This document shows, in pieces, positions 608 to 58,195 of a stretch of DNA of 64,000 bases. Below the pieces are notes generated by a model. The model saw only the letters and a program-made list of their open reading frames with translations. It searched no databases and was not told the DNA's origin. This stretch comes from Phycisphaerae bacterium (lineage in GTDB: Bacteria; Planctomycetota; Phycisphaerae; SM23-33). The stretch's first letter is position 1. Every line of letters begins with the position of its first letter. The stretch is from the NCBI GenBank assembly GCA_041946855.1, contig JBHGBE010000003.1, forward strand, positions 47,662 through 111,661, given 5' to 3'. The position numbers and the translations under genes are program-made.

Positions 608-821
608 CTTGCGCCCGCCGCCTGGCGCAAGGCGTTCCCCCGCCGGCCGATTCCTCCGCGTTATTCCTTGCCCTTGGCCCCGGCGCGCCCTATGATATTC
701 CTGCCGTGCTAGGCGGGGCGCTAGCGGTGCCCTGAGTCCCGAAAGGGATGACCCGCAATCCGCTTCAGCGGGGCCGATATCCGCCGCGGGTTGCTGTCCG
801 CGGGATCATCCGTCTTGCCGG

Positions 822-956
822 CGGCGATGAAGGTTGGGTCCTCTGCAACGTCGTGCCGTGAACCTGGTCAGGTCCGGAAGGAAGCAGCCATAAGCGTGCC
901 AGCGACGTGTGCCGGAGGGTCGCCTGACTGGAGCCGTTCGACCTGGCGGACCCCGT
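822..956 (+). ncRNA. ffs: Signal recognition particle RNA (4.5S/ffs-type)
   Basis: The conserved domain IV motif GGUCAGGUCCGGAAGGAAGCAGCC lies at about 869-892. GCAACG and GUGUGCCGG blocks and the terminal pairing GGGUCC...GGACCC match E. coli 4.5S RNA. The RNA sits immediately upstream of dnaX, as in the conserved ffs-dnaX-ybaB-recR arrangement. The ends are approximate. Confidence 0.75.
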
Positions 957-990
957 GGAAAGCAATTCCAAGCGGAGTGCACGGCATTTT

Positions 991-17924: not shown

Positions 17925-18476
17925 ATGGCCAAGTCTTGCGAGACATTCGATCACACGGCCGATGTTGGCCTGGCGGCGCGGGCGGACACGCCGGGGGAGC
18001 TGTTCGAGGCGCTGGGCGAAGGATTGGCCGATTACATCTGCCCGCGCACGACCGTCCGGCCGCGCGAGAAGCGGACACTGACGGTCGAGGCCGAGGACGT
18101 CGAGGCGTTGGCGGTCGATTTCCTGGCGGCACTGCTCAACGTGATTCAGGCGGACAGGTTCATGGTGACGGCCGTGAGCGTCATGGAGTGCGGCGGCACA
18201 GTCGCGCAGCGACACGGCGCCGCTCTGGCTGGCGCCGATGAAGGTGATTCTCCACGCAAGAGAGACTCGGCCGGTGCAGCCAAAGCGGTGTCGCGTCCCT
18301 TCGGGACTTTGCCACCGCACTCCAAAGTCAAAGTGACGGCCGAGTTGACGGGTGAGCCGTTCGATGCGTCCCGCCACGAGATTCACACGGAGGTCAAGGC
18401 CATCACCTACCATTTGCTGAAGGTTTCGCAGGAGCAAGACGGCACTTGGATAGGCCGGGTGATACTGGATCTGTGA
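17925..18476 (+). CDS. Archease (RtcB activator) carrying an in-frame palindromic-element insertion
   Basis: The N-terminal FDHTADVGL, EAEDVEALAVDFLAALL and the C-terminal EVKAITYH are archease hallmarks. The segment MECGGTVAQRHG...PPHSKV is encoded by palindromic element copy 2. Confidence 0.8.
   Translation: MAKSCETFDHTADVGLAARADTPGELFEALGEGLADYICPRTTVRPREKRTLTVEAEDVEALAVDFLAALLNVIQADRFMVTAVSVMECGGTVAQRHGAALAGADEGDSPRKRDSAGAAKAVSRPFGTLPPHSKVKVTAELTGEPFDASRHEIHTEVKAITYHLLKVSQEQDGTWIGRVILDL
18183..18326. repeat. GC-rich palindromic element, copy 2 (inside archease, in frame)
   Basis: The termini ATGGAGTGCGGCGGCACAGTCGCG ... TTTGCCACCGCACTCCAAAG match copies 1 and 3. Confidence 0.8.
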
Positions 18477-18517
18477 ATTCGCTAGCCGCGATTCGCCACT
18501 CGCGATTTGCGGTTCAT
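18475..18517. repeat. 7-nt tandem array (gattcgc units)
   Basis: Direct reading shows the array between archease and rtcB. Confidence 0.6.
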
Positions 18518-18525
18518 CGAGGTGC

Positions 18526-19985
<1,460 letters not shown>

Positions 19986-19989
<4 letters not shown>

Positions 19990-20181: not shown

Positions 20182-22671
20182 ATGGCACTGGGATTCTTCC
20201 GCCGCCACCAGAAGGGAGTGATGATCATCATGGTCTTCCTGATGGTCAGCTTCCTGGTCAGCACTCTCGGGTGGGAGTACATAGGCAGGCGCATCGCGGA
20301 CCTGTTTCACCTCAATCCCGAGTTCAGGGAGGTGGGCACATCGGTCTACGGCCCCGTACAGGCCGGGCGCCTTCAGTCCCTGAAGGCCGAGCTGTACATC
20401 CTGAGGCAGACGGCCCTGTCGGAAGGACTTCGGAGGACGAGCAGGTACCGCGTGCCGGGCGCGGACGAATTCGCCCTGCTCGAGCAGAACGGCGACAACG
20501 ACGCCCTGGCCTTCGCGCTGCTGCTACAGGAGGCCGAGCACAACGGCGTCAAGGTCGCCGGCCAGGAAGTCCAGAACGAGATGGAGATGATCGGCCTGAC
20601 GGGGGAGTACTACAAGAACCTGCTGTCCAGGCTCCAGGGCGACCGCGAGGCCGGCCGGGTCACCGACGCCGAAGTCCGCCAGGCCGTCCGCGACTGGCTG
20701 ATGGTCTACAAGTCGGCGCAGGAAAACGCGTACGACGTGCCGCCCTCGGAGACGGAGGTCGCGCACCTCTACCAGGATATCTCCGAGCGGATCAACCTCC
20801 GCGTGGTCAAGGTCTCCGCGGAGGAGCTGGTGGCCAAGGCCCTGGCCACGACCATGCCCACGACCGCGCCCTCGTCGTCGCCGGCGAGCGCCCCGTCCGA
20901 AGCGGCGCTCAAGAGGATAGCGGCCGTCCCCAGCGAGGCGGAGATCAACGCCCAGTTCATGAGCTTCCGCGGCGTCGCGCCGGGCACGCTGCCCGACAAG
21001 AGCGCCTTCGGCTTCGGCTACAAGCTGCCCGACCGGGCGAAGGTGGCGTACCTGTTCATCAGCCAGCGCGTGCTGGACAGGGCGGTCCGCCCCAGCCCCG
21101 ATGAACTGATGCAGTACTACAGGGATCATCGCAAGGACAAGGTTCGGGTGCCCGAGGGGGCCTCCGCCCAGACCAGGCCGGAGTCGGCTCCCTCGACGGC
21201 ATCCGCCCCGGCCAGCCGATCCGCCGAGGAGGCGCCGAAGGAGAAGGAGGTCGTCCTGGGCAGCCTGCCGTTCAGCCAGGCCAAGCCGATCATCGTCAAG
21301 CTCCTTGCGCCCGAGGCCGCCGACAAGAGGAAGAACGACCTTGTCAACCGCGCCGCGGAGATCGAATTGAGACTCGCCGGCCGGCAACTGCCGACAGGCA
21401 TGAACATCTACGAGGCCATTGTGCGCGGGCTGCCGGCGGCCGGGCCGGAGCCCGAAGTGCCGGGCCTGATGCAGACCGGGCCCGCCGAGATGAAGCTCGC
21501 CGCCACCATCAGGTCCCCCATCAGGAACGTGCCGTTGGACCGCGCGATGGACATGCTGGCGGAGGATGTGGGCCTGACCGCCATCTGCTACCCGTGGGGC
21601 AGGCACGGCAGCGAGACCTACAGCCAGTCGCTGCTTGTCTCGGTCAACGTGCCCGAAGGGCAGCAGATCACGCTTGAGGCCGCACTGAAGCAGATAGCGA
21701 TGCAACTCAAGATGACCGCGATGATCGGCGGATGGCGGATGTGCGACCAGGTCGACAACGTACTGTTTCCCATCCCGGCCTCAGACGTGGACGATCTTGA
21801 GATGTTCCCCGTCTCCGCCCGCCAGACGCCGCTGGAGGACCTCGACGCCTTCCGCAAGGATGATGTCCTGGGCAGCAGCTACGTAATTGGCGGGGGCGGG
21901 CGGACGCTGATCCAGGAGGCATTCACCGCCCAGCCGTTCGGCGGCGATCCTCGCATGCCGCACATGAAGGTGGGCGACAAGGGCTCTCAGATGCAGGTCA
22001 TGGGCGCCACGCCCGGCTGGCTGCTGTGGCGGCTGCTGGACGCCGCGCCGGCCGCGGACCCCGAGCCATCCGCCATCAACACCGACGCGGAGCTTCGCAA
22101 GAAGGTCATCCACGACATCAGGATCACCGTCGCGATGGCCGTGGCCCAGCAGGAGGCGCTGGCCATCGAGCGGGCGGCGGTCAAGGACGGGCTTGAGAAG
22201 GCCGCCGCGGCCGCCGGCTTCGAAAGCTACGAAACAGGCATGTTCTCCCGGAAGAACTTCAACCTACAGTGGAACGACGTGCCGAAGCTGGACCTGGACG
22301 CCATCGAGAACGCCAAGATGAGGGAGTCCTTGAAGGAGTCCGTCATCGGCCAGGTCTTCTCGCTGGTCCCCAAGAACGTCGAGCCGACCACGCAAGGTTA
22401 TGGAACCAGCGGCATCCTGTCCCTGCGCCTGCCGCCGAAGCGCGAGGTCGTGCTGGTGCAGCGGATCGGCTACTCGCCATCGGTGAAGAGCGAGTTCGAG
22501 TCGTTCGGCCGGCGGGTGATCGCCGGCTACCTGGCCAACAACCGGCTGGCCAGCGGGCTCCAGCGCTGGTTCTTCCTGGGCATGACCGAGCAGGGAATGT
22601 TTCCGTTCGGCATCGCCAAGCGCGTGGACTACAAGAAGAAGCTGGAAGAGGGCGGCCCGCGAGCGCCTTGA
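20182..22671 (+). CDS. Membrane-anchored periplasmic protein with a SurA-N-like/PpiD-like chaperone domain
   Basis: An N-terminal TM helix is followed by a SurA_N-like region. The protein is 829 aa. The assignment is tentative. Confidence 0.35.
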   Translation: MALGFFRRHQKGVMIIMVFLMVSFLVSTLGWEYIGRRIADLFHLNPEFREVGTSVYGPVQAGRLQSLKAELYILRQTALSEGLRRTSRYRVPGADEFALLEQNGDNDALAFALLLQEAEHNGVKVAGQEVQNEMEMIGLTGEYYKNLLSRLQGDREAGRVTDAEVRQAVRDWLMVYKSAQENAYDVPPSETEVAHLYQDISERINLRVVKVSAEELVAKALATTMPTTAPSSSPASAPSEAALKRIAAVPSEAEINAQFMSFRGVAPGTLPDKSAFGFGYKLPDRAKVAYLFISQRVLDRAVRPSPDELMQYYRDHRKDKVRVPEGASAQTRPESAPSTASAPASRSAEEAPKEKEVVLGSLPFSQAKPIIVKLLAPEAADKRKNDLVNRAAEIELRLAGRQLPTGMNIYEAIVRGLPAAGPEPEVPGLMQTGPAEMKLAATIRSPIRNVPLDRAMDMLAEDVGLTAICYPWGRHGSETYSQSLLVSVNVPEGQQITLEAALKQIAMQLKMTAMIGGWRMCDQVDNVLFPIPASDVDDLEMFPVSARQTPLEDLDAFRKDDVLGSSYVIGGGGRTLIQEAFTAQPFGGDPRMPHMKVGDKGSQMQVMGATPGWLLWRLLDAAPAADPEPSAINTDAELRKKVIHDIRITVAMAVAQQEALAIERAAVKDGLEKAAAAAGFESYETGMFSRKNFNLQWNDVPKLDLDAIENAKMRESLKESVIGQVFSLVPKNVEPTTQGYGTSGILSLRLPPKREVVLVQRIGYSPSVKSEFESFGRRVIAGYLANNRLASGLQRWFFLGMTEQGMFPFGIAKRVDYKKKLEEGGPRAP

Positions 22672-22740: not shown

Positions 22741-22813
22741 GGGTAGGTAGCTCAGCTGGTAGAGCGCGGCACTGAAAATGCCGAGGTCGCCGGTTCAATC
22801 CCGGCCCTACCCA
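22741..22813 (+). tRNA. tRNA-Phe (anticodon GAA)
   Basis: The cloverleaf runs from the acceptor stem GGGTAGG, through the D-arm TAGCTCAGCTGGTAGAGC, the anticodon loop CTGAAAA and the T-arm GGTTCAATCC, to ...CCCTACCCA. Confidence 0.9.
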
Positions 22814-25518: not shown

Positions 25519-26331
25519 ATGAACGCCAAGCTCCTCCGCGAACTCTTGGTCCAGGTTTCCGCCGGGCGGATGGATGTCGATGCGGCCGTGGCGCGGCTGC
25601 GGCACATGCCGTTCGAGCAGGTGGGCTTCGCCAACATCGACCACCACCGGGCGATCCGCTGCGGCTTCCCGGAGGTGATCTACTGTCCCGGCAAGTCGAT
25701 CGAGCAGATCGTAGGCATCTTCAGTCGCCTCGCGGCCGCCAGCGCCAACGTGCTGGCCACGCGTGCGACGCGCGAGGCGTATCAGGCCATCGCGGCAGAA
25801 CATCCCAAGGCCGAGTTCCACGAGTTGGCGCGTGCGATCACGCTGCGCCAGTGCGACCACAAGCCTGTGGGCCACATCGCGGTGGTGACGGCCGGGACGA
25901 GCGACCTTGCCGTGGCCGAGGAGGCCCGCGTGACGGCCGAGATCATGGACCAGCGCGTGACGACGCACTACGACGTGGGCGTGGCCGGCCTGCACCGGTT
26001 GCTCGCCCGGAGCGAGCAGCTCCAGCAGGCCAACGTCATCGTCGTGGCGGCCGGCATGGAGGGTGCGCTGGCCAGCGTGGTCGGCGGCCTGGTGGCGGTG
26101 CCGGTGATCGCCGTGCCGACCAGCGTGGGCTACGGCGCGAGCTTCGGCGGCCTTGCGGCCCTGCTGACCATGCTCAATAGCTGCGCATCGGGCGTGAGCG
26201 TGGTGAACATCGACAACGGCTTCGCGGCCGGTTACATCGCGGCGATGATAAATCGGCAGACGGCAGGCAACGGGCAACGGGCAACTGGCAACACAAGAAA
26301 GCAACAAGTGCGAAGGGGACGGAACGCATGA
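25519..26331 (+). CDS. larB: Nickel-pincer cofactor biosynthesis protein LarB-like (PurE/AIR carboxylase-related)
   Basis: A PurE-like fold (HIAVVTAGTSDLAVAEEA...VIVVAAGMEGALASVVGG) with an N-terminal extension is typical of LarB. Confidence 0.65.
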   Translation: MNAKLLRELLVQVSAGRMDVDAAVARLRHMPFEQVGFANIDHHRAIRCGFPEVIYCPGKSIEQIVGIFSRLAAASANVLATRATREAYQAIAAEHPKAEFHELARAITLRQCDHKPVGHIAVVTAGTSDLAVAEEARVTAEIMDQRVTTHYDVGVAGLHRLLARSEQLQQANVIVVAAGMEGALASVVGGLVAVPVIAVPTSVGYGASFGGLAALLTMLNSCASGVSVVNIDNGFAAGYIAAMINRQTAGNGQRATGNTRKQQVRRGRNA

Positions 26332-26390
26332 AGACGAAAGATTCTCTTGCTTGTCGCTACGGCTTGACGCCCTTATAATTGAGTGTTGAT

Positions 26391-26582
26391 ATGGGAAACG
26401 CAATCGTAATCAAGGTTCCGAGCCGCAGAAGCCGCATCCTTGCCATGCGCTCGCCGATGGATACGGAGGTCGTCGCCCACGGAAATGATCTGGATAAGGT
26501 TCTTGAGAAAGCCGCGAAGGCCGGGGTAAAGGACCCGATCATCATGTTCGTACCCAGGCCTGGCAGACGGCACACCTACTGA
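26391..26582 (+). CDS. Small DUF5678-like protein
   Basis: The protein is 63 aa with EVVAHGNDLDKVLEKAAKAGVKDPIIMFVP. The likely promoter is TTGTCG-17-TATAAT, 11 nt before the ATG, so the transcript is nearly leaderless. The gene lies in the low-GC islet. Confidence 0.35.
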   Translation: MGNAIVIKVPSRRSRILAMRSPMDTEVVAHGNDLDKVLEKAAKAGVKDPIIMFVPRPGRRHTY

Positions 26583-26587
26583 CAAAC

Positions 26588-27049
26588 ATGCCTAGTTACA
26601 AGTACTCCTTCGTCAAGTGTCGTTACGCCAATGGCATAGTTGACGAGAGAGGCCAGACGTTTGTCCCCGTTCGCATCACGAATCCGTCAACAGGCGTCTG
26701 GCGAATGGCATGGGGATTGATAGACACGGGCGCGGAGTCCTGTCTGTTTCCCGCCAATCTGGCCGCAAAGCTTGGACATGTCCTGAAGGCCAAGGGCGTC
26801 AAGGCAAGCGTAGCCAGCGGGATTGAGGAAAGGCCTGTCACCACGTAAAAGCATACCTTCCGGGTCGAGCTTATGTCGAAGGACCTGCAAAGGGTGGTCT
26901 GGCGGTCCGGCAAAATGGAAGTAGACTGCGCCGAATGCAACTCCCTAGTCATACTTGGCGTGGACAACCTGTTCGCATCGTTCAGGTTAACGATAGACTA
27001 CCCTAAGGAAGTCATGCGTTTCCAGTGGCAGCGGGCGATAGGGAAGTGA
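26588..27049 (+). pseudogene. Retropepsin-like (clan AA) aspartic protease interrupted by an in-frame TAA at 26846-26848
   Basis: The D-T-G active site LIDTGAESCLF is present. A C-terminal motif LVILGVDNLFASFRLTIDYPKEV continues in the same frame after the stop. The region has low GC. Confidence 0.55.
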
Positions 27050-27063
27050 GTCGAGTTCTTCCG

Positions 27064-28020
27064 ATGGGCGTCGAGAGAGTAACCTCTGTTCCCAGACTTC
27101 CAGCGCGTGCCGCCGACGCAAACAAGGGCAGTTTCGGGCGGGTGCTGATCGTCGGCGGGTGCAGGAAGATGTCCGGCGCGGTGGCGCTGGCGTCGAACGC
27201 GGCGCTGCGCGGCGGGGCGGGGCTGGTGGAGTTCGCGGCGCCGGCCGTCGCGCACCCGATCATCGCGGGCCTGTGCCCCTGCGCGGTGTCGCTGCCGCTG
27301 GAGTGCGACGAGCACGGCGAGATTTCTCCGGCCGCTCTGCCGCAGGTCCGCGAGCGTTTCGAGAAGGCCACGGTCCTGGCCGTCGGGCCGGGGTTCGGCG
27401 TGGGAGTTGTCCAGCGGAATATCGTGCAGGCGGCGCTGGAGCAGGAAAAGCCAGCCGTCATCGACGCCGACGGCCTCAATAACCTGGCGAAGATCGAGGA
27501 CTGGCCTTTGCTGCGCAATTGCCCGCTGATCCTGACGCCCCATCCGGGCGAGTTCTCGCGCCTGACGGGCAAGACGATCCGGGAAATCCAGGACGATCGG
27601 GAGAGAATCGCTGTAGAGACCGTCAGGAAATGGACTGCTCGTAGTGTGCCCGTAAGGGCATCCGCTCGCAGCGTGCCCGCAAAGACATCGAAGAACTCCT
27701 TACGGCGTCACTACGAACGCGGATGCGAAGTCGTGCTCGTCCTCAAGGGCGCTGGCACGGTCGTCACCGACGGCCGGCGCGTCTACATCAACAAGACCGG
27801 CAACCCCGGCATGGCCACCGGCGGCACCGGCGACGTGCTGACCGGCCTGACGGCCGCCCTTATCGCCCAGCACCTCGAACCGTTCGACGCCGCGTGCCTG
27901 GCCGTTCATCTCCACGGCCGTGCGGGCGACCTGGCGGCGGAACAGCTCGGCCAGACATCACTCATCGCCTCGGACCTGATAGACTTCCTGCCCGCCGCGA
28001 TCAAAGAAGTTCTGCTATAA
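27064..28020 (+). CDS. nnrD: ADP-dependent NAD(P)H-hydrate dehydratase (YjeF C-terminal family)
   Basis: GSFGRVLIVGG, LKGAGTVV and GMATGGTGDVLTG are present. Confidence 0.8.
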   Translation: MGVERVTSVPRLPARAADANKGSFGRVLIVGGCRKMSGAVALASNAALRGGAGLVEFAAPAVAHPIIAGLCPCAVSLPLECDEHGEISPAALPQVRERFEKATVLAVGPGFGVGVVQRNIVQAALEQEKPAVIDADGLNNLAKIEDWPLLRNCPLILTPHPGEFSRLTGKTIREIQDDRERIAVETVRKWTARSVPVRASARSVPAKTSKNSLRRHYERGCEVVLVLKGAGTVVTDGRRVYINKTGNPGMATGGTGDVLTGLTAALIAQHLEPFDAACLAVHLHGRAGDLAAEQLGQTSLIASDLIDFLPAAIKEVLL

Positions 28021-28042
28021 TCGGCCCAGGAGAAATTCCGTC

Positions 28043-29326
28043 ATGAGTTCCACGAGCGTTATCGGTACGGGCGGCCCGCAGGAGTCACTCTCACAGGCGA
28101 AGGTCCGCGAGATCATCGCCCAGGCCGTGGGCCGTCTTGCCCCGGATGGCAAGAGCATACTGGCGATTATCCCCGACCACACGCGGACCTGCCCCCTGCC
28201 GATGTTCCTCCGCGAGCTTCACTCGGCCGTCGGCAAGAGGGCCAAGCGGCTGGACTTTCTCGTGGCCCTTGGCACGCACCCGCCGATGAGCGACTCGCAA
28301 ATCGACCACCTGCTCGGCGTGCCCGATGGCAAGCGCGGCGAGGTATTCCCCGGCGTCAAGGTCTTCAATCACACGTGGAAGGACCCCAAGTCCCTGGCCC
28401 GCGTTGGCTCGCTCAGCGCCGACAGGATCAACGAGATTTCCGGCGGCCTGTTCTCGATGGATGTCGAGGTCACGGTCAACAAGCTGATCTTCGACTACGA
28501 CATAGTGCTGATCGTCGGGCCAGTCTTCCCGCACGAGGTGGTGGGGTTCTCCGGCGGGTGCAAGTATTTCTTCCCGGGCATTTCGGGGCCGGAGCTGCTG
28601 AACTTCTTCCACTGGCTGGGCGCGGTGATCACCAACCCGCGGATCATCGGCACAAAGCACACACCTGTGCGGGCCGTGGTCGATGCGGCCGGCGACATGC
28701 TCAAGGTCAACAAGTACGCATTCTGCATGGTCGTCCGCGGCGAGGAGCTTGCGGGCCTTTACTTCGACGAGCCAAAGGCGGCGTGGTCGGCCGCCGCGGA
28801 CCTGTCGGACAAGATTCACATCATCTACGTGGAAAAGCCCTTCTCGTCGGTGCTTTCCAAGGCGCCCAAGATGTACGACGACCTGTGGACCGGCGGCAAG
28901 TGCATGTACAAGATGGAGCCGGTCGTGGCCGATGGCGGCGAACTCATCATCTACGCCCCGCACATCACCGAGATTTCCGTCACGCACGGGGCGATCATCG
29001 AGGAGATCGGCTACCACGTCCGCGACTACTTCCGCACGCAGTGGGACAAGTTCAAGCACTACCCCTGGGGCGTGCTGGCGCACTCGACGCACGTCCGCGG
29101 CATCGGCACGATGACGGACGGCGTGGAAAAGCCTCGCATCCGCGTGACGCTGGCCACCGGCATCCCCGAAGCCCTCTGCCGCAAGATCAACCTGGGCTAC
29201 CGCGACGTGGCCTCCATCCGCGTCGAGGACTGGCAGGGCAAGGAATCGCAGGGCAGGCTCTACGTTCCCAAGGCTGGCGAGATGCTCTACAAGCTCCAGG
29301 ACCCGCCGGCGTGGCAGAAGTTCTAG
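28043..29326 (+). CDS. larA: Lactate racemase LarA-family protein (DUF2088)
   Basis: The IIPDHTRTCP motif, LarA-like N- and C-domains and a length of 427 aa support the call. Confidence 0.7.
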   Translation: MSSTSVIGTGGPQESLSQAKVREIIAQAVGRLAPDGKSILAIIPDHTRTCPLPMFLRELHSAVGKRAKRLDFLVALGTHPPMSDSQIDHLLGVPDGKRGEVFPGVKVFNHTWKDPKSLARVGSLSADRINEISGGLFSMDVEVTVNKLIFDYDIVLIVGPVFPHEVVGFSGGCKYFFPGISGPELLNFFHWLGAVITNPRIIGTKHTPVRAVVDAAGDMLKVNKYAFCMVVRGEELAGLYFDEPKAAWSAAADLSDKIHIIYVEKPFSSVLSKAPKMYDDLWTGGKCMYKMEPVVADGGELIIYAPHITEISVTHGAIIEEIGYHVRDYFRTQWDKFKHYPWGVLAHSTHVRGIGTMTDGVEKPRIRVTLATGIPEALCRKINLGYRDVASIRVEDWQGKESQGRLYVPKAGEMLYKLQDPPAWQKF

Positions 29327-40873: not shown

Positions 40874-41839
40874 CTACTCGCGGTCAGGCCATTGGCCCGA
40901 GAACACCTCGACCGCCGGGCCGGTCATGTACACGCGGTTGTCGGACTGCCGCCATTCCAGTTCCAGTCCGCCGCCGGGCAGGTGGGCGACGATCCGCCGG
41001 CCGGTCCGCCCGGTGAGCACGCCCGCGACGCAGACGGCCGATGCGCCGGTCCCGCAGGCCAGCGTCACGCCGCTGCCGCGCTCCCACGTCCGCATCGTCA
41101 CTTCGCTCGCGGATTGCACCTGGACGAAGTGGACATTGACCCGCTTCGGGAATACCGGGGCGCGCTCGATAACAGGGCCGACCATTTCCAGGGGCACCGC
41201 CGCCACATCCTTGGAGTAGATCACCACGTGCGGATTCCCCATTGAGACGCAGGTCATGCGGGTAATCGGTGAATCGGTCAACTGGTCAATCGGTGAATCG
41301 GTGAATCGCTTGACCGGGGAACCCTCGACCATGGCCCCCCGACTAACCGATTCACCGATCAACCGATCAACCCTGACGTACTTGTCAAGCGGCAGGTCCA
41401 CTATCTTGTCCAAGGACTCAGCGCCCGGCAGCACGACGGGAATGTCGGCCGGCTTGAGCACCGGCTCGCCCATATCAACCGTGGCTGCCGTGACCTTGCC
41501 GTCGGGACCTAGCCTCAGGTCGATGGTCTTGACGCCGCTGGCCGTCTCGACGCGCATCGGGTTGGCCCGCGACAGTCCGTGGTCGTATGCGTACTTGGCC
41601 AAGCACCGGATGCCGTTGCCGCACATGAGGCCCTCGGACCCGTCGGCGTTGAACATCCACATGCGGACGTCGGCGGTGCGGCTTGGCATGATGAGGATCA
41701 GGCCGTCGGACCCGACGCCGAAGTGCCTGTCGCTGACCGCCCTGGCCAGCGCGGAGGCGCCCTTCGGGTCGATCTGCTGGTTGAAGCAGTCGACGTAGAC
41801 ATAATCGTTGCCCGCGCCTTGCATCTTCGTGAAGCGCAT
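40874..41839 (-). CDS. dapF: Diaminopimelate epimerase carrying an in-frame 7-mer repeat insertion
   Basis: GAGNDYVYVD, the catalytic Cys motifs MCGNGIRC and ACGTGASA, and SMGNPHVV are present. A roughly 33 aa insert encoded by 41262-41378 sits where E. coli DapF has about 9 aa. Confidence 0.9.
   Translation of the reverse strand: MRFTKMQGAGNDYVYVDCFNQQIDPKGASALARAVSDRHFGVGSDGLILIMPSRTADVRMWMFNADGSEGLMCGNGIRCLAKYAYDHGLSRANPMRVETASGVKTIDLRLGPDGKVTAATVDMGEPVLKPADIPVVLPGAESLDKIVDLPLDKYVRVDRLIGESVSRGAMVEGSPVKRFTDSPIDQLTDSPITRMTCVSMGNPHVVIYSKDVAAVPLEMVGPVIERAPVFPKRVNVHFVQVQSASEVTMRTWERGSGVTLACGTGASAVCVAGVLTGRTGRRIVAHLPGGGLELEWRQSDNRVYMTGPAVEVFSGQWPDRE
41262..41378. repeat. Inverted pair of 7-nt arrays (aatcggtgaatcggtcaactggtcaatcggtgaatcggtgaatcg ... 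aaccgattcaccgatcaaccgatcaacc) inside dapF, in frame
   Basis: Direct reading shows the pair. Confidence 0.85.
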
Positions 41840-41949
41840 GCGGTCCCTTTCATCCGGGGCAGGCGATTATACCCTCGTCCGCGCCGGCCGAAAATGCCCC
41901 TTGGCCCAAGTAATCCGCCGCTGGCGTCAGGTCGATACAGAAGCAAGAG

Positions 41950-43494
41950 GTGAGCGCGGGCCGCGCGGACATGCAAACCATCACACAGGACAACCTGGCC
42001 ATCCAGTTTTCCCGGGCGCTGCACGGCCTGAACGTGTCATCCCCCGGCCCGACCGAGTTCGACGACCTGCGCCAGCGTATGGCCTCGGTGCTGGAGCTTT
42101 CTACCCGCGAAGTGGCCATCGCCTCCATCGCGGGCGCGCCGGCGGTGACGTCGGTTCTCAGCGACCGCCTGCCGAACGGCAAGTGCAGGCTCCTGCTGGC
42201 GATAGTCCAGCACGGCAGCGAGCTGACCAACTGCGCCAAGGCCATCGCCCAGTTCATCGGCCAGGGCCGCAACCTCGACTGCGCGGCCATGTGTACGCTG
42301 TCCAGCTACAACGACTGGTACATCCCCATCATCATCTGCCGCAGCAGCGACGGCCTGGGGGCCAGGATCAAGGACCTGCTTTCCCCGTCGGCGCAGGTGG
42401 TGCAGCCGGCCACCGCCTCGCCGGGGGCGGCCAGAGGTCCTGGCTCCGCCGCCGCAGGACCGATCGTCATGGATGAGCGAATCATGCGCATGGCCCGCCT
42501 GGCGCTTGCGTCATCCTCGGCCGTCATCCTGGTCGGCCCGCCCGGAACGGGCAAGACCACGATCATCAAGCAGCTCCTCCAGGAGGTCGCCAGGAACCCC
42601 GCGGCGTTCGGCCTGAGGAACATCCCGCGCGAGCCCAAGTGGGTCACGCCGTCGGAGAACTGGACGCTGGCCGACCTGGTTGGCGGGCAGGGGATCGACG
42701 AGAAGGGCCGCCGCCGCTTCCGCATGGGACACGTCCTGGAGGCCATCCACGAGGACCGCTGGCTGGTGCTCGACGAGGCCAACCGCGCCAACATGGACAG
42801 GATCTTCGGGGGCCTGTTGACCTGGCTGTCGGACCAGCGGGTCGAGCTTGGCAAGGCGTGTACCGACATGAACTCGCCGTCGGTGATGCTCGACTGGAAC
42901 GACGCGCCCCCGTGCAAGACCGCTCGCCTTGAGCTGCTGGACGCCGACAAGATCGTCACGTCGGACCCGATCCTGTTCCAGGCGGGCCTGGAGTGGCGGC
43001 TGATGGGCACGTACAACGTCCAGGACTCACACAAGGTGTTCAGCTTCGGCCAGGCGCTGGGGCGGCGGTTCGTCCGCGTGCCCATACCAGTGATCGAGCC
43101 GGAGCAGTTCAGGCACGCGCTGGCGCCGCTGGCCAAGGAACTGCCCGAGGAAGTCCGGAAGGCGGTGCTTTGCCTGTACGCGGCCCACCGCCAGAGCAAA
43201 GGGGCGCAACTGGGGCCGGCGATCTTCCTCAAGATCGCCTCCTATCTGACGGCCGGGCTGAAGCTGCCGCAACTGGCTAACATCTCAGTCGTCCGCAACA
43301 AGGCCCGGCCGGCCGATGCCGGCGACGACTTGCTCATGCAGCTCGTCGCCGAGGCCTACGTCTCATCGGCGGGGATGTACCTGGGCGGGCTGTCGCCGGA
43401 GGACCTGGCCGGCCTTACCAAGGCGGTCCTGGCGGGGGGGTTCCCCGAGGAGCAGTGGCGGTGGGTGCTGGCGCTGGCGCCGTCGCTGGGGTGA
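41950..43494 (+). CDS. McrB-like AAA+ (AAA_5) GTPase with an uncharacterised roughly 180 aa N-terminal domain
   Basis: Walker A appears as VILVGPPGTGKTT, the McrB-type motif as LVLDEANRANMDRIFGGLLTWL, and a downstream RRF motif as YNVQDSHKVFSFGQALGRRFVRVPIP. No McrC-like gene is adjacent. Confidence 0.55.
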   Translation: MSAGRADMQTITQDNLAIQFSRALHGLNVSSPGPTEFDDLRQRMASVLELSTREVAIASIAGAPAVTSVLSDRLPNGKCRLLLAIVQHGSELTNCAKAIAQFIGQGRNLDCAAMCTLSSYNDWYIPIIICRSSDGLGARIKDLLSPSAQVVQPATASPGAARGPGSAAAGPIVMDERIMRMARLALASSSAVILVGPPGTGKTTIIKQLLQEVARNPAAFGLRNIPREPKWVTPSENWTLADLVGGQGIDEKGRRRFRMGHVLEAIHEDRWLVLDEANRANMDRIFGGLLTWLSDQRVELGKACTDMNSPSVMLDWNDAPPCKTARLELLDADKIVTSDPILFQAGLEWRLMGTYNVQDSHKVFSFGQALGRRFVRVPIPVIEPEQFRHALAPLAKELPEEVRKAVLCLYAAHRQSKGAQLGPAIFLKIASYLTAGLKLPQLANISVVRNKARPADAGDDLLMQLVAEAYVSSAGMYLGGLSPEDLAGLTKAVLAGGFPEEQWRWVLALAPSLG

Positions 43495-43499
43495 CGGGG

Positions 43500-44561
43500 T
43501 CAGGTCGGGCCGCCTGACATGTCCGGCCGGTCCGGCTCGATGGTCGCGCGCGGCGTGACACGCGGGGCCCTGGTCGGCGCGGCGGTGGGCGAGGTCCCGC
43601 CGCGTACCGGGCGTGTGGTCGGCGCCCTGGCGCCCTCGATCGCGGGCAGGTGGAGCGTCGTACCGGCCTGGAGCGTATCGCTGGTCAGGCCGTTGGCCGC
43701 CATGATCGTGGTCCAATACTTGTCGTCTCCGTAGTGCTTCCTGGCGATGGAGTGCAGCGTATCGCCTGCCACGACCGTGTAATCGACCGCGGCGATCGGG
43801 CCTGTGCCGCCGGGGCGCGTGGTGGACAGCGGCGTGGGCTTGGGCGGGATGACCAGCTTCATGCCGGGCTTGAGCGAGTCATTGGTGACGCCCGGGTTGG
43901 CCTTGGCGACGGTCGGCCAGAGGCTGCCGTTGCCGTACATGGCCTCGGCTATCCTCCAGAACCCGTCGCCCTCCTTGACCACGTACTCCTTAGCGCCGGC
44001 CGGCAGGGGCGGCGCGCCGCCGGGCGGGGTGGGCGTGGGCGAGACCTTGGGCAGCGGAGGGACGATGAGCGTCTGCCCGACTCTGAGCGCGTTGGCGTTG
44101 GACGCCGGGTTGGCCTTGGCGATCAGGTCCCAGTACTGGCTGCTGCCGTACATCTTCTGGGCGATGGAATGAAAATTGTCGCCCGCGAGCACGACGTACT
44201 TCCGCTCCTCACCGGCGCCGGCCGGAGTGGGCGAAGGCGCGGGCGTAATGGGAATGACGACTATCGTCGGCAGGGGGGACGGCGTGGCAGTAGGCGCGGG
44301 CGTCGATGACACGTCTATGGTCGGCAGCGGCGGCGCAGTCGGCGACGGCGTGGCCAGAGGGGTCGGCGTGGCCGTCGGCGGACGGGTGGGGGTGCGCGTC
44401 GTTCGGGGCGTGGCCGTCGGCGCGACGCTGTTGGTGGGCGTGGGCGTCGTTTGGGCCACCTTGTCGTCGGGCTTTGGGTGCTTGAACACGACGAGGTACA
44501 CCACGACGACCAGGAGGACGAAGACCGAGACCGCGATGCCGATTTTCACGTCCGTGCGCAT
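43500..44561 (-). CDS. LysM-repeat peptidoglycan-binding membrane protein
   Basis: An N-terminal TM helix and a Pro/Thr-rich linker are followed by three LysM domains (YTVVAGDTLHSIA..., YVVKEGDGFWRIA..., YVVLAGDNFHSIA...). Confidence 0.8.
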   Translation of the reverse strand: MRTDVKIGIAVSVFVLLVVVVYLVVFKHPKPDDKVAQTTPTPTNSVAPTATPRTTRTPTRPPTATPTPLATPSPTAPPLPTIDVSSTPAPTATPSPLPTIVVIPITPAPSPTPAGAGEERKYVVLAGDNFHSIAQKMYGSSQYWDLIAKANPASNANALRVGQTLIVPPLPKVSPTPTPPGGAPPLPAGAKEYVVKEGDGFWRIAEAMYGNGSLWPTVAKANPGVTNDSLKPGMKLVIPPKPTPLSTTRPGGTGPIAAVDYTVVAGDTLHSIARKHYGDDKYWTTIMAANGLTSDTLQAGTTLHLPAIEGARAPTTRPVRGGTSPTAAPTRAPRVTPRATIEPDRPDMSGGPT

Positions 44562-51639: not shown

Positions 51640-53088
51640 TCATCTGGAAGTCTGCTCTGTTGTCACGATCATCGCAACAGCACACGCCGCGAGGACTATC
51701 AACGGCACTTCCGTCATGGGGAATCGGAATCGCTGGTGGAATACGAACGGCAGCGCGGCCGCCAGGTTGGCCGCTACGCAGAGCAGGACGGGCGCGCCGG
51801 TTGACCACGACACGCCCCGGCGGATGAACCACCACGCCGCCAGCACGAACGTCAGGCCGTTGACGATCCCCAGCACGGCCGCCTGCCAGGCCGGCATGAT
51901 GAACACCGTCGGCCAGGGGCGGACGAAGTGCCACAGCCGGTACGCCCATATCGCGGCCGCGTCGCTCGGATGCTCGCGGAGCCAGTCCATCGCCAGCGCG
52001 GTCCATTCACGGCCGGTCTGCCGGGGATCGAACAGGCCGTCGCGCTGCATCTTGGCGACGTGCTGGGCCGAGTCCTCGTCGTAGAGTGCCTTCTGCTCGC
52101 GGTCGAACGTCGCCTTGTCGGCCGCGCGGTAGGAGGCAAGGATGCGGGCGTTATTGCCCAGCCAGAAGTTGTACGGGCCGAAGGCCGTCGTCGGAGTCCA
52201 GCCCGCGCCGGTGATGCCCTGGCGGATGGTCCATGGCGCAAGCACCACCGCCATCGTCAGCACGGCCGGCAGGATCGCGGCCCGCGCCCAGCGCCTCTTC
52301 CCGACCGCCAGCACGGCCAACGCCGCGACGATCAGCGCGCAGAAGGCCAGGCCGTTGGGCCTTGCCAAGCAGCACAAGGCCATCGCAGCGCCGCAAAGTG
52401 CTCCCATTCGCCCCGGCCGTGCCAGGCCGTGTTCTTGTGGCGTGGGCCTCTGGCCCGCGTGTCTCGCGGCCGTCTCGGCCGCGACCGCAGGCGAGACGCC
52501 TGCGGGACGCACGGGCGGGACGCCCATGCCACGTTCATCCAGCCGGCCCGGCCGTGCGACGGCGGGCAGCCTCACCAGCAGCCACAGGGCCGCAAGGATG
52601 CACAGCGCAAAGAGCGTCTCGCTGCTCCACATCCGGCTGTAGTGGATGACGGCCGGATGGAAGCCAAGCGCCAGCGCCGCCAGCGGCCTGGCCCACCGCA
52701 CTCCGGGCGCGACGGCCCCCGCAAGCCCAATCCCCGCCAGCACCAGGGCCATAGCCATGACCCACGCCGCCACCTTCGCGCAGATCAGCCACGCCCGCGG
52801 CGCGGACTGGCCGCCCACCCACCAGAGCGGCGCGCCGATCAGGGGCAGCAGCGGCGGACGGTACACATCGGCGTGGAAGGCAGGGGGATTCGGCGGCGCC
52901 GGCTCGTACCAGCGGTAGAAGCTCACCGCGAACCCGCGCCCCGCGGCCAGATTGCGGGAGATGTCGCGGTATTCCGTGCCGTCATCGTGCAGGAAGGCAT
53001 CTTCACTTGTCACGGCCAGCGCGGCGACGCGGACCGCGCCGGCCAGCACGATCGCCAGGACCGTGACGATCGCGCGAAGGTCCGCCAT
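51640..53088 (-). CDS. ArnT/PMT-family (GT39/GT83-like) membrane glycosyltransferase
   Basis: N-terminal TM helices with HDDGTEY...RPPLLPL are followed by many TM segments. The triple-hairpin repeat lies in frame at 52490-52533. Confidence 0.6.
   Translation of the reverse strand: MADLRAIVTVLAIVLAGAVRVAALAVTSEDAFLHDDGTEYRDISRNLAAGRGFAVSFYRWYEPAPPNPPAFHADVYRPPLLPLIGAPLWWVGGQSAPRAWLICAKVAAWVMAMALVLAGIGLAGAVAPGVRWARPLAALALGFHPAVIHYSRMWSSETLFALCILAALWLLVRLPAVARPGRLDERGMGVPPVRPAGVSPAVAAETAARHAGQRPTPQEHGLARPGRMGALCGAAMALCCLARPNGLAFCALIVAALAVLAVGKRRWARAAILPAVLTMAVVLAPWTIRQGITGAGWTPTTAFGPYNFWLGNNARILASYRAADKATFDREQKALYDEDSAQHVAKMQRDGLFDPRQTGREWTALAMDWLREHPSDAAAIWAYRLWHFVRPWPTVFIMPAWQAAVLGIVNGLTFVLAAWWFIRRGVSWSTGAPVLLCVAANLAAALPFVFHQRFRFPMTEVPLIVLAACAVAMIVTTEQTSR
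52490..52533. repeat. GC-rich hairpin element (ggcgagacgcctgcgggacgcacgggcgggacgcccatgccacg), intragenic and in frame
   Basis: About 31 nt are nearly identical to the reverse complement of 62193-62240 and related to 17347-17414. Confidence 0.7.
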
Positions 53089-53937
53089 GCCGCGAGATGA
53101 GGGCGAGCGATGCACGAGGCGAGTATATCGCCGCCGCTCGGGCGGCTTCAACTTCCGCGGCGATGAAGCGCAAGTGCTTCGCGCGCATCCGCGTCAAGCC
53201 GAAGCATAAAGCGCCGGCCGGATTTTCCCCGGCGCAACGTTCAGCGCCGCCGTGCGTTGGGCAGGCGCGGGCGCGAAGCCTCAAGTTTTCCCGCCCGCGC
53301 GCCGATAAATGCGGTGGTATAATGGCGGTGGAAAAGTGAATAAGAGTTGATCACACGCCTCTGCCGTGCCCGGCGGGCGCGTCATGTGAAAAGAACCGAT
53401 AAACCCATTAAGGGAAGCCTGGTCCGAATCGCTCCGGCGGTTGGCAGCTACCCACTTGAACTAATGGGTTCTTTCTCCTGACCGCCACCGGCATTCGCGG
53501 AGGCTTCTTTTTGCGCACACGGCTGAAGGGCTTCGACAGCGGAGGTACCTGAGGAACGGAGGGAGACTACCTGCGTGTCGCGGTAGTCCGAGGTCCTGGC
53601 TGCCGAACGAGGCCGCCAAATGCGGCAGGGCCATTATACTTGCCTCAGTTCCTCCGGTTCCTCCGTTGTGAGAAGAAACCGATTACAGTCCCAAAGCCCC
53701 GGCACCTGGGACAGTCCCCGCGCCGGCTTTTCGCTTGAAAAATCCCGCGCCTCGCCGCCATAATGCTTCGTCTGGCTGGGCCTTGACCCGCCTTGGCGGG
53801 TCGTGTTGCGCACAGGCCCCAGACGTGCGAGCTATCATGGAGGATGGATTTCGGCCGGACTGCCCACGGATGGACGGCAGGTGGATGCTTCCTCGCTTCT
53901 GTGCTTTTTGCCTCGGCCGTGATGCGGAGCAACGGAC

Positions 53938-57304: not shown

Positions 57305-58195
57305 ATGGGTCACTTCAGAACCGCGGCGTTACTGGCAACGGCCTTCTTGGCGACGCTGCCGGCCCTCGGTCAGGCCATCCGCCCCATCAACCCCGACGGC
57401 GTGGACGCACCCGCGCCCACGGCCGCCCCCAAGGCCGACCTGGCCGCCAAGTTCAAGCAGGGCGACATACTGTTCGTCGCCACCGTCGACAAGGCCCGGC
57501 AGGTGGCGATGACATCCAGCATCCCGCCGACCATCCTCATGGAGATCACGTTCAAGGACCTCCAGATGCTCCGCGGCAAGGCGCCGGGGAACCTGTCGCT
57601 CCACTACAGCGCTCGCGGTCGAACCGATCCCGCCCTGGCGGCCGGCAAGAGGGCGATCGTCGCCGCCAACGTCGCGGGCAACAACGGCGTCATCGTGGCC
57701 GTCGCGGAGGCGACGGATGAGAACCTTAAGGCCATCGGCGCCGGCGCTATGAGTCAGCCCACCAGTGGACCGGCAAGCAGACCCGCCAGCGGACCGGCCA
57801 TCGAGCCGGTAGCGGTGGACAATGCCCGCGTCGCGCAGCTCACGGCCGAGCTCAAGAAATCGCCCATCCTGTTCACCGCGAAGATCAAGGCGTCCAGACT
57901 CAGAGGCGCGGCCAAGAGCATGCCGCCGATCTACTTGATGGACGTTGAGCTGGAGGACATCAAGGCCCTCCGCGGGGCGGCGCCCAAGGCCGGCAAGTAC
58001 TTCTACGCCGTCAGGCAGGAGGCGACGCCGCAGTTCCCGGATGGGAGCACCTGGCTGGTCGGCGCGGACAACGCTGAAGGCACGGTCGTCATCAAGGCCA
58101 TGCTTGAGGCCACGGATGGGAACCTACAGAACGTAGGCGCGCCCACCGCGACGTCCAAGCCGGCCGCCACGGGCAAGGTCAACGACGGCGCCTGA
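57305..58195 (+). CDS. Secreted hypothetical protein with an internal tandem duplication
   Basis: A signal peptide is followed by two roughly 120 aa repeats (ILFVATVDKA...LMEITFKDLQMLRGKAPG and ILFTAKIKAS...LMDVELEDIKALRGAAPK). Confidence 0.35.
   Translation: MGHFRTAALLATAFLATLPALGQAIRPINPDGVDAPAPTAAPKADLAAKFKQGDILFVATVDKARQVAMTSSIPPTILMEITFKDLQMLRGKAPGNLSLHYSARGRTDPALAAGKRAIVAANVAGNNGVIVAVAEATDENLKAIGAGAMSQPTSGPASRPASGPAIEPVAVDNARVAQLTAELKKSPILFTAKIKASRLRGAAKSMPPIYLMDVELEDIKALRGAAPKAGKYFYAVRQEATPQFPDGSTWLVGADNAEGTVVIKAMLEATDGNLQNVGAPTATSKPAATGKVNDGA

What the first reader, a model, noticed from the sequence alone, without database searches (positions are those of the whole stretch)
41950..43494. 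Orphan McrB-like AAA+ GTPase with a novel N-terminal domain and no McrC partner
Residues from about 190 to 400 carry AAA_5/McrB-type motifs. Walker A appears as VILVGPPGTGKTT. The McrB-type NTPase box is LVLDEANRANMDRIFGGLL. The arginine-finger region is GQALGRRFVRVPIP.

In characterised systems McrB works with the nuclease McrC, or with BrxL/GmrS-type partners. Here the gene is isolated on the plus strand between minus-strand dapF and a LysM gene, with no nuclease-like neighbour.

The roughly 180 aa N-terminal region and the roughly 110 aa C-terminal tail have no features I can assign.

It could be a degenerate defence remnant or a repurposed NTPase.
Basis: partly seen in the sequence, partly recalled or inferred. 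Interest (0 to 1): 0.55.

Follow-up and report, generated by a model that had tools for sequence, protein, structure and literature searches.

The report
Solitary McrB-like motor, restriction-cassette descendant
This intact gene encodes a McrB-type AAA+ motor whose relatives in other bacteria sit in a methylase–motor–nuclease–Vsr restriction cassette, but a whole lineage including this Phycisphaerae genome keeps only the motor, apparently repurposed for an unknown job.

Summary
An intact ORF lies at 41950-43494 (+), with a likely start at ATG 41971 (507 aa). It has an AAA_5 core carrying every quoted motif, sits between dapF and a LysM gene, and its N- and C-terminal regions match no Pfam family.

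The main new result is context. All 6 homologue loci inspected outside the query's clade carry a cassette of C5 methylase, this ATPase and an uncatalogued PD-(D/E)xK protein of about 408 aa; 5 of the 6 also carry Vsr. All 6 loci in the query's clade (at least 50% identity, monophyletic 100/100) are solitary, each in a different housekeeping neighbourhood.

In the solitary clade the catalytic residues stay invariant and the AAA core is under purifying selection. Cassette-specific motifs in the N-domain and three conserved arginines are lost.

Best reading: an exapted restriction motor, not a decaying remnant. Its present function is unknown. Interest is moderate.

The parts
41971..43494 (+). 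Coding sequence of the solitary McrB-like AAA+ NTPase (507 aa plus stop). The longest ORF extends upstream to GTG 41950 (514 aa).
   Evidence: ORF. The 507-aa form equals NCBI MFB3890702.1. GC3 is 0.91. Sequence around the start is shown.
41840..41970 (.). 131-bp divergent intergenic region between the dapF start (minus strand) and the ATPase start. Presumed promoter region; no sigma-70 consensus was found.
41971..42405 (+). N-terminal alpha/beta domain (residues 1-145 in 507-aa numbering). It is a recurrent accessory module of defence-type ATPases. Here it lacks the SKxGNxxVRxxQ motif of the cassette-linked relatives.
42406..42465 (+). Low-confidence Ala/Gly/Pro-rich linker (residues 146-165). 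It occupies the position of the McrB 'N-linker'.
   Evidence: pLDDT below 50 for residues 150-161. The role of the linker in canonical McrB is taken from bioRxiv 10.64898/2026.08.31.748284.
42466..43095 (+). AAA+ core of the AAA_5 / McrB clade (residues 166-375), with a helix-2 beta-hairpin insert and a long insert before the sensor-1 strand.
42535..42558 (+). Walker A motif GPPGTGKT (residues 189-196). It is followed by T-I, not by an aromatic residue.
   Evidence: G189, P191, G192, G194 and K195 are invariant and P190 and T193 nearly invariant in 54 sequences.
42763..42813 (+). Walker B and following box LVLDEANRANMDRIFGG (residues 265-281).
   Evidence: D268, E269, N271, R272, D276, I278 and G280 are invariant.
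43015..43026 (+). NxxD signature (N349-V-Q-D352) in the sensor-1 position.
   Evidence: N349 and D352 are invariant. They align to the NTAD of a canonical McrB.
43054..43071 (+). ALGRRF (residues 362-367), the arginine pair equivalent to the McrB RRRF (sensor II / arginine finger region).
   Evidence: A362, L363, R365 and R366 are invariant. The register with McrB is shown.
43096..43491 (+). C-terminal all-helical region (residues 376-507), made of the AAA+ lid plus a conserved helical extension. It is shared by both clades. Invariant residues include H406, G415, F419, Y425, E461, Y463 and G468; W496 is nearly invariant.
   Evidence: The hhalign match to McrB extends to about residue 420.

Best explanation
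The gene encodes a McrB-clade AAA+ NTPase with three parts: an N-terminal alpha/beta accessory domain, the AAA+ motor, and a helical lid with an extension.

**Origin (inferred from context and phylogeny).** It descends from the motor subunit of a methyltransferase-linked, McrBC-like restriction cassette. That cassette consists of a C5 DNA methylase, the motor, an overlapping PD-(D/E)xK nuclease of about 408 aa, and Vsr. In one lineage, whose only named member is this Phycisphaerae MAG, the methylase, nuclease and Vsr were lost. The motor alone was kept and diversified, and it now sits in unrelated housekeeping neighbourhoods.

**What is shown.**
- NTPase residues are intact and invariant.
- The AAA core is under purifying selection.
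- The solitary clade is monophyletic.
- No cassette gene lies in the 64-kb window or within 8 kb of the solitary-clade genes checked.
- Cassette-specific residues are lost: the N-domain motif SKxGNxxVRxxQ, plus R234, T241 and R358.
- New clade-specific residues have appeared: P57, L63, A105 and Q351.

**What is inferred.** The protein still assembles into a nucleotide-dependent hexameric ring, as McrB does. It now works without a dedicated cleavage subunit, as an exapted NTP-driven sensor or remodeller whose N-domain has changed ligand. It no longer carries out methylation-controlled restriction. Its nucleotide preference (GTP, ATP or both) and its substrate are unknown.
For: **Clade assignment.**
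- Pfam AAA_5 at E=2.9e-15.
- hhalign of the family profile against a canonical McrB gives 97.7%, E=1.7e-12, over 192 columns with NxxD and RRF in register. A bona fide MoxR gives 87.7% over 90 columns, Walker A to Walker B only.
- The same N-domain is fused to an McrB-type core that scores E=4.6e-46 against NCBIfam McrB (P0236; that score, 157.5 bits, is below the model's 637-bit cut-off).

**Ancestral cassette.**
- All 6 inspected loci outside the solitary clade have the methylase, the ATPase and the partner ORF, and 5 of 6 also have Vsr; the sixth contig ends just after the partner.
- The partner family has invariant E289, D320, E334 and K336.
- 26 of 95 non-clade ATPase hits share a contig length with a partner hit, against 0 of 24 clade members, p=0.002.
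- The census paper PMC11090510 states that methyltransferase association is likely ancestral in McrB GTPases.

**Solitary state.**
- All 6 clade loci lack the cassette, and every context differs.
- tblastn of partner, methylase and Vsr proteins finds nothing in the window or in three clade loci.
- The five clade loci with DNA share no gene family other than the ATPase.
- The whole window is core chromosome.

**Function retained.**
- The clade is monophyletic in 100/100 NJ bootstraps.
- 47 invariant columns include Walker A, Walker B, NxxD and RR.
- Five clade genes have no internal stops, and the AAA core has pN 0.18-0.24 against pS 0.44-0.60.
- GC3 of 0.91 matches the host.

**Remodelling.** Clade-specific substitutions are listed.
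Against: - **No complete genome was available.** A nuclease, methylase or new partner encoded elsewhere cannot be excluded. D352, which in McrB contacts McrC (PMC11090510), and the C-terminal extension shared with the cassette-linked clade both remain conserved. That would fit a retained partner.
- **The N-domain looks weakly constrained in the solitary clade.** Its pN is 0.38-0.49 against pS 0.49-0.61. That could mean decay of that domain rather than a new function.
- **Taxonomy is thin.** Only one clade member is named, so 'vertical inheritance' rests on sequence divergence and varied contexts.
- **The tree is weak on rooting.** It is neighbour-joining and midpoint-rooted.
Confidence: 0.55

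Rival explanations
1. Split restriction system. The motor still works with a PD-(D/E)xK nuclease (and a protecting methylase) encoded elsewhere in the genome. On this view the 'orphan' state only reflects weak operon conservation in this lineage.
For: - D352 of NxxD stays invariant; in McrB it contacts McrC (PMC11090510).
- The C-terminal helical extension and the helix-2 hairpin scaffold are conserved in both clades.
- Only 64 kb of this genome, and about 16 kb around each other clade member, could be inspected.
- BsuMI shows that methylases and restriction subunits can lie in separate operons (bioRxiv 10.64898/2026.08.31.748284).
Against: - All 6 solitary-clade loci lack every cassette gene, whereas all 6 other loci keep the ATPase and partner genes overlapping.
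- None of the 141 partner-family clusters lies on a solitary-clade contig or is named as Planctomycetota.
- Residues conserved at 94-97% only in the cassette-linked clade (R62, R234, T241, R358) are lost. That is what one expects if partner or target contacts were released.
Confidence: 0.2
2. MoxR-like chaperone. The protein is functionally an AAA_5 remodeller of a protein substrate, as NorQ, CbbQ and RavA are, and its resemblance to McrB is only superfamily-level.
For: - Foldseek's top PDB hits are NorQ and CbbQ at E of about 1e-10.
- JGI annotations call several homologues 'MoxR-like ATPase'.
- The genomic context is housekeeping.
Against: - hhalign to a real MoxR covers only Walker A to Walker B. 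The match to McrB runs through NxxD, RRF and the lid.
- Pfam found no VWA partner gene among the called genes of the window or the solitary-clade loci.
- The nearest relatives are wired to a nuclease and a DNA methylase, not to VWA proteins.
- No MoxR lid (AAA_lid_8) was detected.
Confidence: 0.1
3. Slowly decaying remnant with no present function, left over after the cassette was lost.
For: - The N-domain shows near-equal pN and pS and has lost its family motif.
- Single-strain McrB genes without McrC are known as remnants, for example in an H. pylori strain mentioned in PMC4722110.
- The scans used found no recognisable promoter or terminator.
Against: - The gene is full length and free of internal stops in every clade member examined.
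- 18 aligned members have diverged to about 50% identity yet keep all catalytic residues invariant. AAA-core identity is higher within the clade (72%) than within the cassette-linked clade (62%).
- New residues are 100% conserved within the clade (P57, L63, A105, R319, Q351, A423, Q457, G490).
- Codon usage matches the host.
Confidence: 0.07

Closest known systems
[quoted passage not shown]
   Same: The relatives of this gene have the same logic: a DNA methylase, a McrB-like AAA+ motor with an NxxD loop, and a PD-(D/E)xK cleavage subunit encoded immediately downstream. As in canonical McrB, the specificity-type N-domain is fused to the motor.
   Different: - The window gene has no methylase, nuclease or Vsr.
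- The cassette's nuclease shows no detectable DUF2357/McrC similarity and matches no Pfam, NCBIfam or PADLOC model.
- LlaI and BsuMI use a separate R1 DNA-binding protein. This family fuses a different alpha/beta domain instead.
- Vsr is a regular component of this cassette (5 of 6 inspected loci).
Canonical McrB (E. coli and T. gammatolerans; PDB 6hz4, 6ut3, 6ut5, 6ut6)
   Different: - No adjacent McrC.
- The loop reads YN[AV][LQ]D rather than MNT[A/S]D[R/K]S.
- There is no aromatic residue after the P-loop.
- About 45 extra residues precede the sensor-1 strand.
- There is an extra C-terminal helical extension.
- NCBIfam McrB scores only E=0.034.
MoxR-class AAA_5 ATPases (NorQ, CbbQ, RavA)
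   Same: Same helix-2-insert AAA+ fold. These are the best Foldseek hits. They also occur as chromosomal, non-defence genes.
   Different: - No VWA partner.
- Profile similarity stops after Walker B.
- The nearest homologues are linked to a nuclease and a methylase, not to metallo-enzyme maturation genes.

Membership tests
McrB-like AAA+ NTPases (McrB GTPase clade of AAA_5) | [quoted passage not shown] | tested here: met
   Pfam AAA_5 at E=2.9e-15. G189, P191, G192, G194, K195 of Walker A and D268/E269 of Walker B are invariant in 54 sequences.
McrB-like AAA+ NTPases (McrB GTPase clade of AAA_5) | Nx(xx)D signature motif in the sensor-1 position (PMC11090510) | tested here: met
   N349 and D352 are invariant. 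They align column for column with the NTAD of a canonical McrB whose neighbour is a PF10117 McrC.
McrB-like AAA+ NTPases (McrB GTPase clade of AAA_5) | Full consensus loop MNT[A/S]D[R/K]S, and an aromatic residue immediately after the P-loop that stacks on the base (canonical, GTP-specific McrB; bioRxiv 10.64898/2026.08.31.748284) | tested here: not met
   The loop is GTYNVQDSHK here, and the family consensus is GTYNA[LQ]DA. The P-loop is followed by T-I/L.
McrB-like AAA+ NTPases (McrB GTPase clade of AAA_5) | GTP-specific hydrolysis stimulated by the partner | not testable with these tools
   This needs a biochemical assay. Non-canonical R2 homologues are reported to be nucleotide-promiscuous.
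McrB-like AAA+ NTPases (McrB GTPase clade of AAA_5) | Closer profile and fold similarity to McrB than to other AAA_5 clades | tested here: inconclusive
McrBC restriction system (two-gene unit) | mcrC (DUF2357 finger plus PD-(D/E)xK nuclease) in tandem with mcrB | tested here: not met
   The gene downstream is a convergent LysM gene. There is no McrC, partner-family, methylase or Vsr gene in the 64 kb or in five other clade loci.
Methyltransferase-linked McrBC-like R-M cassette (this family's relatives; LlaJI/LlaI/BsuMI-like) | Adjacent cognate DNA methyltransferase and PD-(D/E)xK cleavage subunit | tested here: not met
   Met in all 6 loci of the sister lineages but in none of the 6 loci of the window's clade. 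So the window gene is a descendant of such a system, not a member of one.
MoxR AAA+ ATPases | Partner VWA-domain protein nearby, and MoxR-type sensor and lid regions (AAA_lid_8) | tested here: not met
   Pfam found no VWA gene among the called genes of the window. The bpMoxR match covers only residues 172-214 and is below its cut-off. hhalign to a MoxR stops after Walker B.
McrC / DUF2357 family (tested for the partner protein of the relatives, not present in the window) | N-terminal DUF2357 finger domain and C-terminal PD-DxK nuclease | tested here: inconclusive
   The nuclease signature is met: E289, D320, E334-x-K336 and Y355 are invariant in 48 sequences. DUF2357 was not detected: no Pfam hit at E<=10. 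hhalign to a canonical McrC gives 5.5%, and the only aligned stretch is the catalytic core.

The most novel reading that the evidence does not exclude
A restriction-enzyme motor has been domesticated. After losing its methylase, nuclease and Vsr, a McrB-like AAA+ ring became a chromosomal gene kept across a Phycisphaerae-related lineage. Its recognition domain has been remodelled, and it carries out a non-defence, NTP-driven task (on DNA or the nucleoid, or on a protein substrate) with no cleavage subunit at all.
Probability: 0.3. Interest if true: 0.65.

Novelty: new variant of a known kind. Interest (0 to 1): 0.42.

Why it matters
McrB-type motors are understood only as the engine of a two-subunit nuclease. 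McrC both stimulates the motor and carries out the cleavage. A clade in which the motor alone persists would be a natural experiment on two questions:
- what a McrB ring can do without McrC;
- how defence genes are exapted into host functions.

In this clade the catalytic residues are intact and the accessory domain is rewired.

The work also exposes the likely ancestral system, a C5-methylase – motor – PD-(D/E)xK – Vsr cassette. Its nuclease (at least 141 clusters) and its N-terminal module (at least 309 representatives, also found on an McrB-type core and on BrxC/D) have no model in Pfam, NCBIfam or PADLOC. Current annotation and defence-finding tools that rely on these libraries will therefore miss both.

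Tried and rejected
- **Genome-contig scans.** The single-sequence scan found nothing. The alignment scan was swamped by the generic Walker A pattern and returned one irrelevant Clostridia AAA protein, so no genome-level survey was possible.
- **tblastn against plasmids and phages.** Only distant hits to the AAA core at 24-32% identity; uninformative.
- **AFDB Foldseek for the N-domain.** The library was unavailable.
- **Partner against canonical McrC by hhalign and against PDB sequences.** No significant similarity, so I do not call the partner a McrC family member.
- **N-domain net charge as a proxy for DNA binding.** It does not discriminate: -2.3 in the solitary clade against -1.0 in the linked clade.
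- **NG86 pN/pS.** GC3 of about 0.9 and saturation depress pS. I use it only qualitatively: the AAA core is constrained and the N-domain weakly so.
- **Promoter and terminator scan.** Nothing found. This is uninformative for this organism.
- **PADLOC and NCBIfam on the query.** Only P-loop-level matches. I rejected MkoA, mad8 and TRIP13 as meaningful.
- **Contig-length match of 8457 between partner hit P0370 and locus L002.** Dismissed as coincidence. L002 has no ~416-aa ORF and comes from a different source.
- **First NJ script.** It timed out and was rerun with a faster distance calculation.
Full report
**Numbering.** Residue numbers refer to the 507-aa form that starts at ATG 41971. Add 7 for the 514-aa ORF.

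**1. Observation.**
- The ORF 41950-43494 (+) exists. The identical protein in NCBI (MFB3890702.1, 'MAG: AAA family ATPase [Phycisphaerae bacterium]', on a 121-kb contig) is 507 aa, and homologues start at the same place. The likely start is therefore ATG 41971.
- Pfam gives AAA_5 over residues 192-374 of the 514-aa form (E=2.9e-15). Nothing in the listed matches covers the N-terminal ~170 aa or the C-terminal ~130 aa.
- The flanking genes are dapF (40874-41839, minus) and a three-LysM protein (43500-44561, minus, convergent, 5 bp away).
- GC3 is 0.91, like the neighbouring genes.

**2. Which AAA+ clade?** The evidence is mixed at the fold level but favours McrB overall.
- *Points against.* Foldseek against PDB ranks the MoxR-class NorQ/CbbQ first (about 1e-10) and McrB second (about 1e-7). 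A family profile against PDB sequences is topped by midasin, but the best-scoring stretch covers only the Walker A to Walker B segment. NCBIfam McrB scores E=0.034.
- *Points for.* Profile comparison with a canonical McrB gives 97.7%, E=1.7e-12, over 192 columns. That McrB is from M. yannicii, carries McrB_lid, and sits next to a PF10117 McrC. In the alignment, GTYNALDA...ALGRRF matches GTMNTADR...AMRRRF in register.
- *Control.* A genuine MoxR (bpMoxR plus AAA_lid_8, next to a VWA gene) gives 87.7% over only 90 columns.
- *Signature motif.* N349 and D352 are invariant in 54 sequences. The Nx(xx)D motif is described as the signature of all McrB-like GTPases (PMC11090510).
- *Features not met.* Two features of GTP-specific canonical McrB are absent: the aromatic residue after the P-loop (here GKT-T-I) and the full MNT[A/S]D[R/K]S loop. 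Non-canonical R2 homologues are reported to be nucleotide-promiscuous (bioRxiv 10.64898/2026.08.31.748284). 'GTPase' is therefore unproven.

**3. Two kinds of genomic context.** A search of 5.8 billion proteins returned 395 relatives of about 500 aa.
- *Outside the query's clade.* I inspected six loci: Microbacterium sp., M. yannicii, Anaeromyxobacter and three metagenomic contigs. All six show a C5 DNA methylase, the ATPase, and a downstream ORF overlapping its end; two partner copies are incomplete (306 aa where the contig ends shortly after, 274 aa called). Five of the six also show Vsr; the sixth contig ends just after the partner. One cassette is flanked by transposases and two lie in integrative-element-like regions.
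- *Inside the query's clade (at least 50% identity).* I inspected six loci, including the window. The gene is solitary in all of them. Every neighbourhood is different and consists of housekeeping genes.
- *Statistics.* The contrast of 0/6 against 6/6 gives Fisher p=0.002.
- *Negative searches.* tblastn with five partners, five methylases and three Vsr proteins finds nothing in the 64-kb window or in three clade loci. An all-against-all comparison of ORFs from five clade loci finds no shared family except the ATPase and its own shadow frames.

**4. The partner.**
- The downstream ORFs form one family. Five copies are 36-76% identical. The word-indexed searches found 108, then 141, clusters of about 408 aa.
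- In a 48-sequence alignment E289, D320, E334, K336 and Y355 are invariant. This is a complete PD-(D/E)xK signature.
- The family has no Pfam, NCBIfam or PADLOC model and no PDB sequence relative.
- hhalign to a canonical McrC is not significant (5.5%). The only aligned segment is the D...ExK/DxK...Q..Y catalytic core, in register.
- The partner thus occupies the McrC position and role, but I cannot file it in the DUF2357/McrC family.
- The methylase is a type II m5C enzyme (PADLOC MTase_II at 3e-132; NCBIfam dcm).
- Methyltransferase-associated McrBC branches are acknowledged in the literature as likely ancestral and awaiting description (PMC11090510). LlaI, BsuMI and LlaJI are the characterised examples.

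**5. The solitary clade.**
- On the AAA plus C-terminal columns, the 18 aligned clade members form a bipartition in 100/100 NJ bootstraps. They are nested among cassette-linked sequences, and their nearest outgroup (P0028) carries the full cassette.
- Mean pairwise identity by region:

| Region | Within solitary clade | Within linked clade | Between clades |
|---|---|---|---|
| N-domain | 0.38 | 0.26 | 0.16 |
| AAA core | 0.72 | 0.62 | 0.56 |
| C-terminal region | 0.50 | 0.40 | 0.36 |

- Catalytic residues remain invariant.
- Five clade genes with DNA available have no internal stops. The AAA core shows pN 0.18-0.24 against pS 0.44-0.60. The N-domain shows pN 0.38-0.49 against pS 0.49-0.61. 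pS is depressed by the GC3 bias, so constraint is underestimated.
- Residues conserved only in the cassette-linked clade are lost: the S54-K-x-G57-N58-x-x-V61-R62-x-x-Q65 motif, R234, T241/V242 in the helix-2 hairpin, D274 (now N), Q354 and R358.
- New residues are conserved only in the solitary clade: P57, L63, A105, R319, an inserted I328, Q351, A423, Q457 and G490, each at 100%, plus a dgl..r..d.l.P motif at the end of the N-domain.
- This pattern fits release from partner or target contacts plus acquisition of new constraints. It does not fit decay.

**6. The N-domain.**
- Modelled alone, it is a confident alpha/beta sandwich (pLDDT 91.4, pTM 0.86).
- An exhaustive HMMER search of 1.84 billion representatives finds 309 proteins (158 at E<=1e-10).
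- Besides roughly 500-aa family members, the domain is fused to DUF2461 plus an AAA_5 core that matches NCBIfam McrB at 4.6e-46 (below that model's equivalog cut-off), to BREX BrxC/D, to DUF6339, to SAP and to sigma-70 region 4. It also occurs in apparently stand-alone proteins of 130-170 aa, some of which may be fragments.
- It is therefore an unnamed but recurrent accessory module of defence-type and DNA-associated proteins. This fits the modular specificity domains typical of McrB homologues (PMC11090510). The ligand is untested.

**7. The C-terminal region.** It is all-helical. The McrB alignment covers it up to about residue 420, which is the lid. The remaining extension is conserved in both clades (E461, Y463 and G468 invariant; W496 nearly invariant). 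Its role is unknown, and its conservation in the solitary clade is one reason a trans partner cannot be excluded.

**8. Window context.** The 64 kb is core chromosome:
- SRP RNA, dnaX, recR, rpoN, rsgA;
- archease with rtcB, and a tRNA;
- a larB/larA-like gene pair, dnaK, dapF;
- 6S RNA and fumarase.

There are no mobile elements, defence genes, DNA methylases or McrC-type nucleases.

**9. Interpretation.**
- *Origin (about 0.8).* The gene is the motor subunit of a methylase-linked McrBC-like restriction cassette that lost its companions in the ancestor of this clade.
- *Present role (much less certain).* I favour an exapted, still active NTP-dependent ring ATPase or GTPase with a re-targeted N-domain and no dedicated nuclease. 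Overall confidence is 0.55.
- *Rivals.* A split system with an unlinked partner (0.2), a MoxR-like chaperone (0.1), and a functionless remnant (0.07).
- A restriction nuclease acting without its cognate methylase would be self-toxic (my own reasoning). That argues against simple retention of the old function.

**10. Novelty and limits.**
- The protein is a new variant of a known kind: a McrB-like motor that is solitary across a whole clade and has been remodelled. I found no paper describing this clade, the cassette's nuclease family or the N-domain.
- Limits: no complete genomes were available, only one clade member has a taxonomic name, the tree is neighbour-joining and midpoint-rooted, there is no biochemistry, and the partner's fold was not modelled.

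Noticed in passing
window 41259-41372 (inside dapF, 40874-41839, minus strand): dapF contains an in-frame palindromic element of about 115 bp built from 8-bp units. AATCGGTG occurs x5.6 at 41264-41308, and the inverse array AACCGATC x3.5 at 41345-41372. The arms are 36 nt, 78% complementary, with a 17-nt loop. It encodes ...RLIGESVSRGAMVEGSPVKRFTDSPIDQLTDSPITR... between the two DAP_epimerase halves. The double-unit pattern occurs only here in the window (4 hits; none of 100 shuffles reached 4). It may be a MITE/REP-like insertion that is tolerated in frame.
   Followed up: partly
L003, L004, L009, L010, L011, L013 (homologue loci), e.g. L011:6952-11948: A conserved, apparently uncatalogued restriction-modification cassette: type II C5 methylase, N-domain-McrB-like ATPase, an overlapping ~408-aa PD-(D/E)xK protein (invariant E289/D320/E334/K336), and Vsr in 5 of the 6 loci (the L009 contig ends just after the partner). 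The nuclease family (at least 141 clusters) has no Pfam, NCBIfam or PADLOC model. Named members come from Microbacterium, Leifsonia, Curtobacterium, Baekduia and Anaeromyxobacter.
   Followed up: partly
L010:346-3743 (M. yannicii): A canonical McrBC pair lies about 4 kb from the methylase-motor-nuclease cassette, next to an integrase. The pair is a 738-aa McrB with DUF8426 and McrB_lid, plus a PF10117 McrC. Two McrB-type systems therefore sit in one island.
   Followed up: no
proteins P0236, P0260, P0288, P0294, P0279 (hits of the N-domain profile): The unnamed N-terminal alpha/beta domain also occurs fused to DUF2461 plus an McrB-type AAA+ core, to BREX BrxC/D, to DUF6339, to SAP and to sigma-70 region 4. 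It also occurs in apparently stand-alone proteins of 130-170 aa (some may be fragments). It looks like a mobile sensor or specificity module that deserves a family definition.
   Followed up: partly
window 704-984 (+), 22741-22813 (+), 53355-53507 (+): Rfam matches at gathering score: large bacterial SRP RNA immediately upstream of (and slightly overlapping) the dnaX ORF as called, a tRNA, and a 6S RNA.
   Followed up: no
window 20182-22671 (+), 51640-53151 (-), 57305-58195 (+): Three sizeable ORFs (829, 503 and 296 aa) with coding-like GC3 and no Pfam match at E<=1e-4.
   Followed up: no
window 17925-19989 (+) and 25519-29326 (+): An archease-RtcB RNA ligase gene pair. Separately, a LarB-like AIR carboxylase and a LarA N-terminal-domain protein flank an NAD(P)HX dehydratase.
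   Followed up: no
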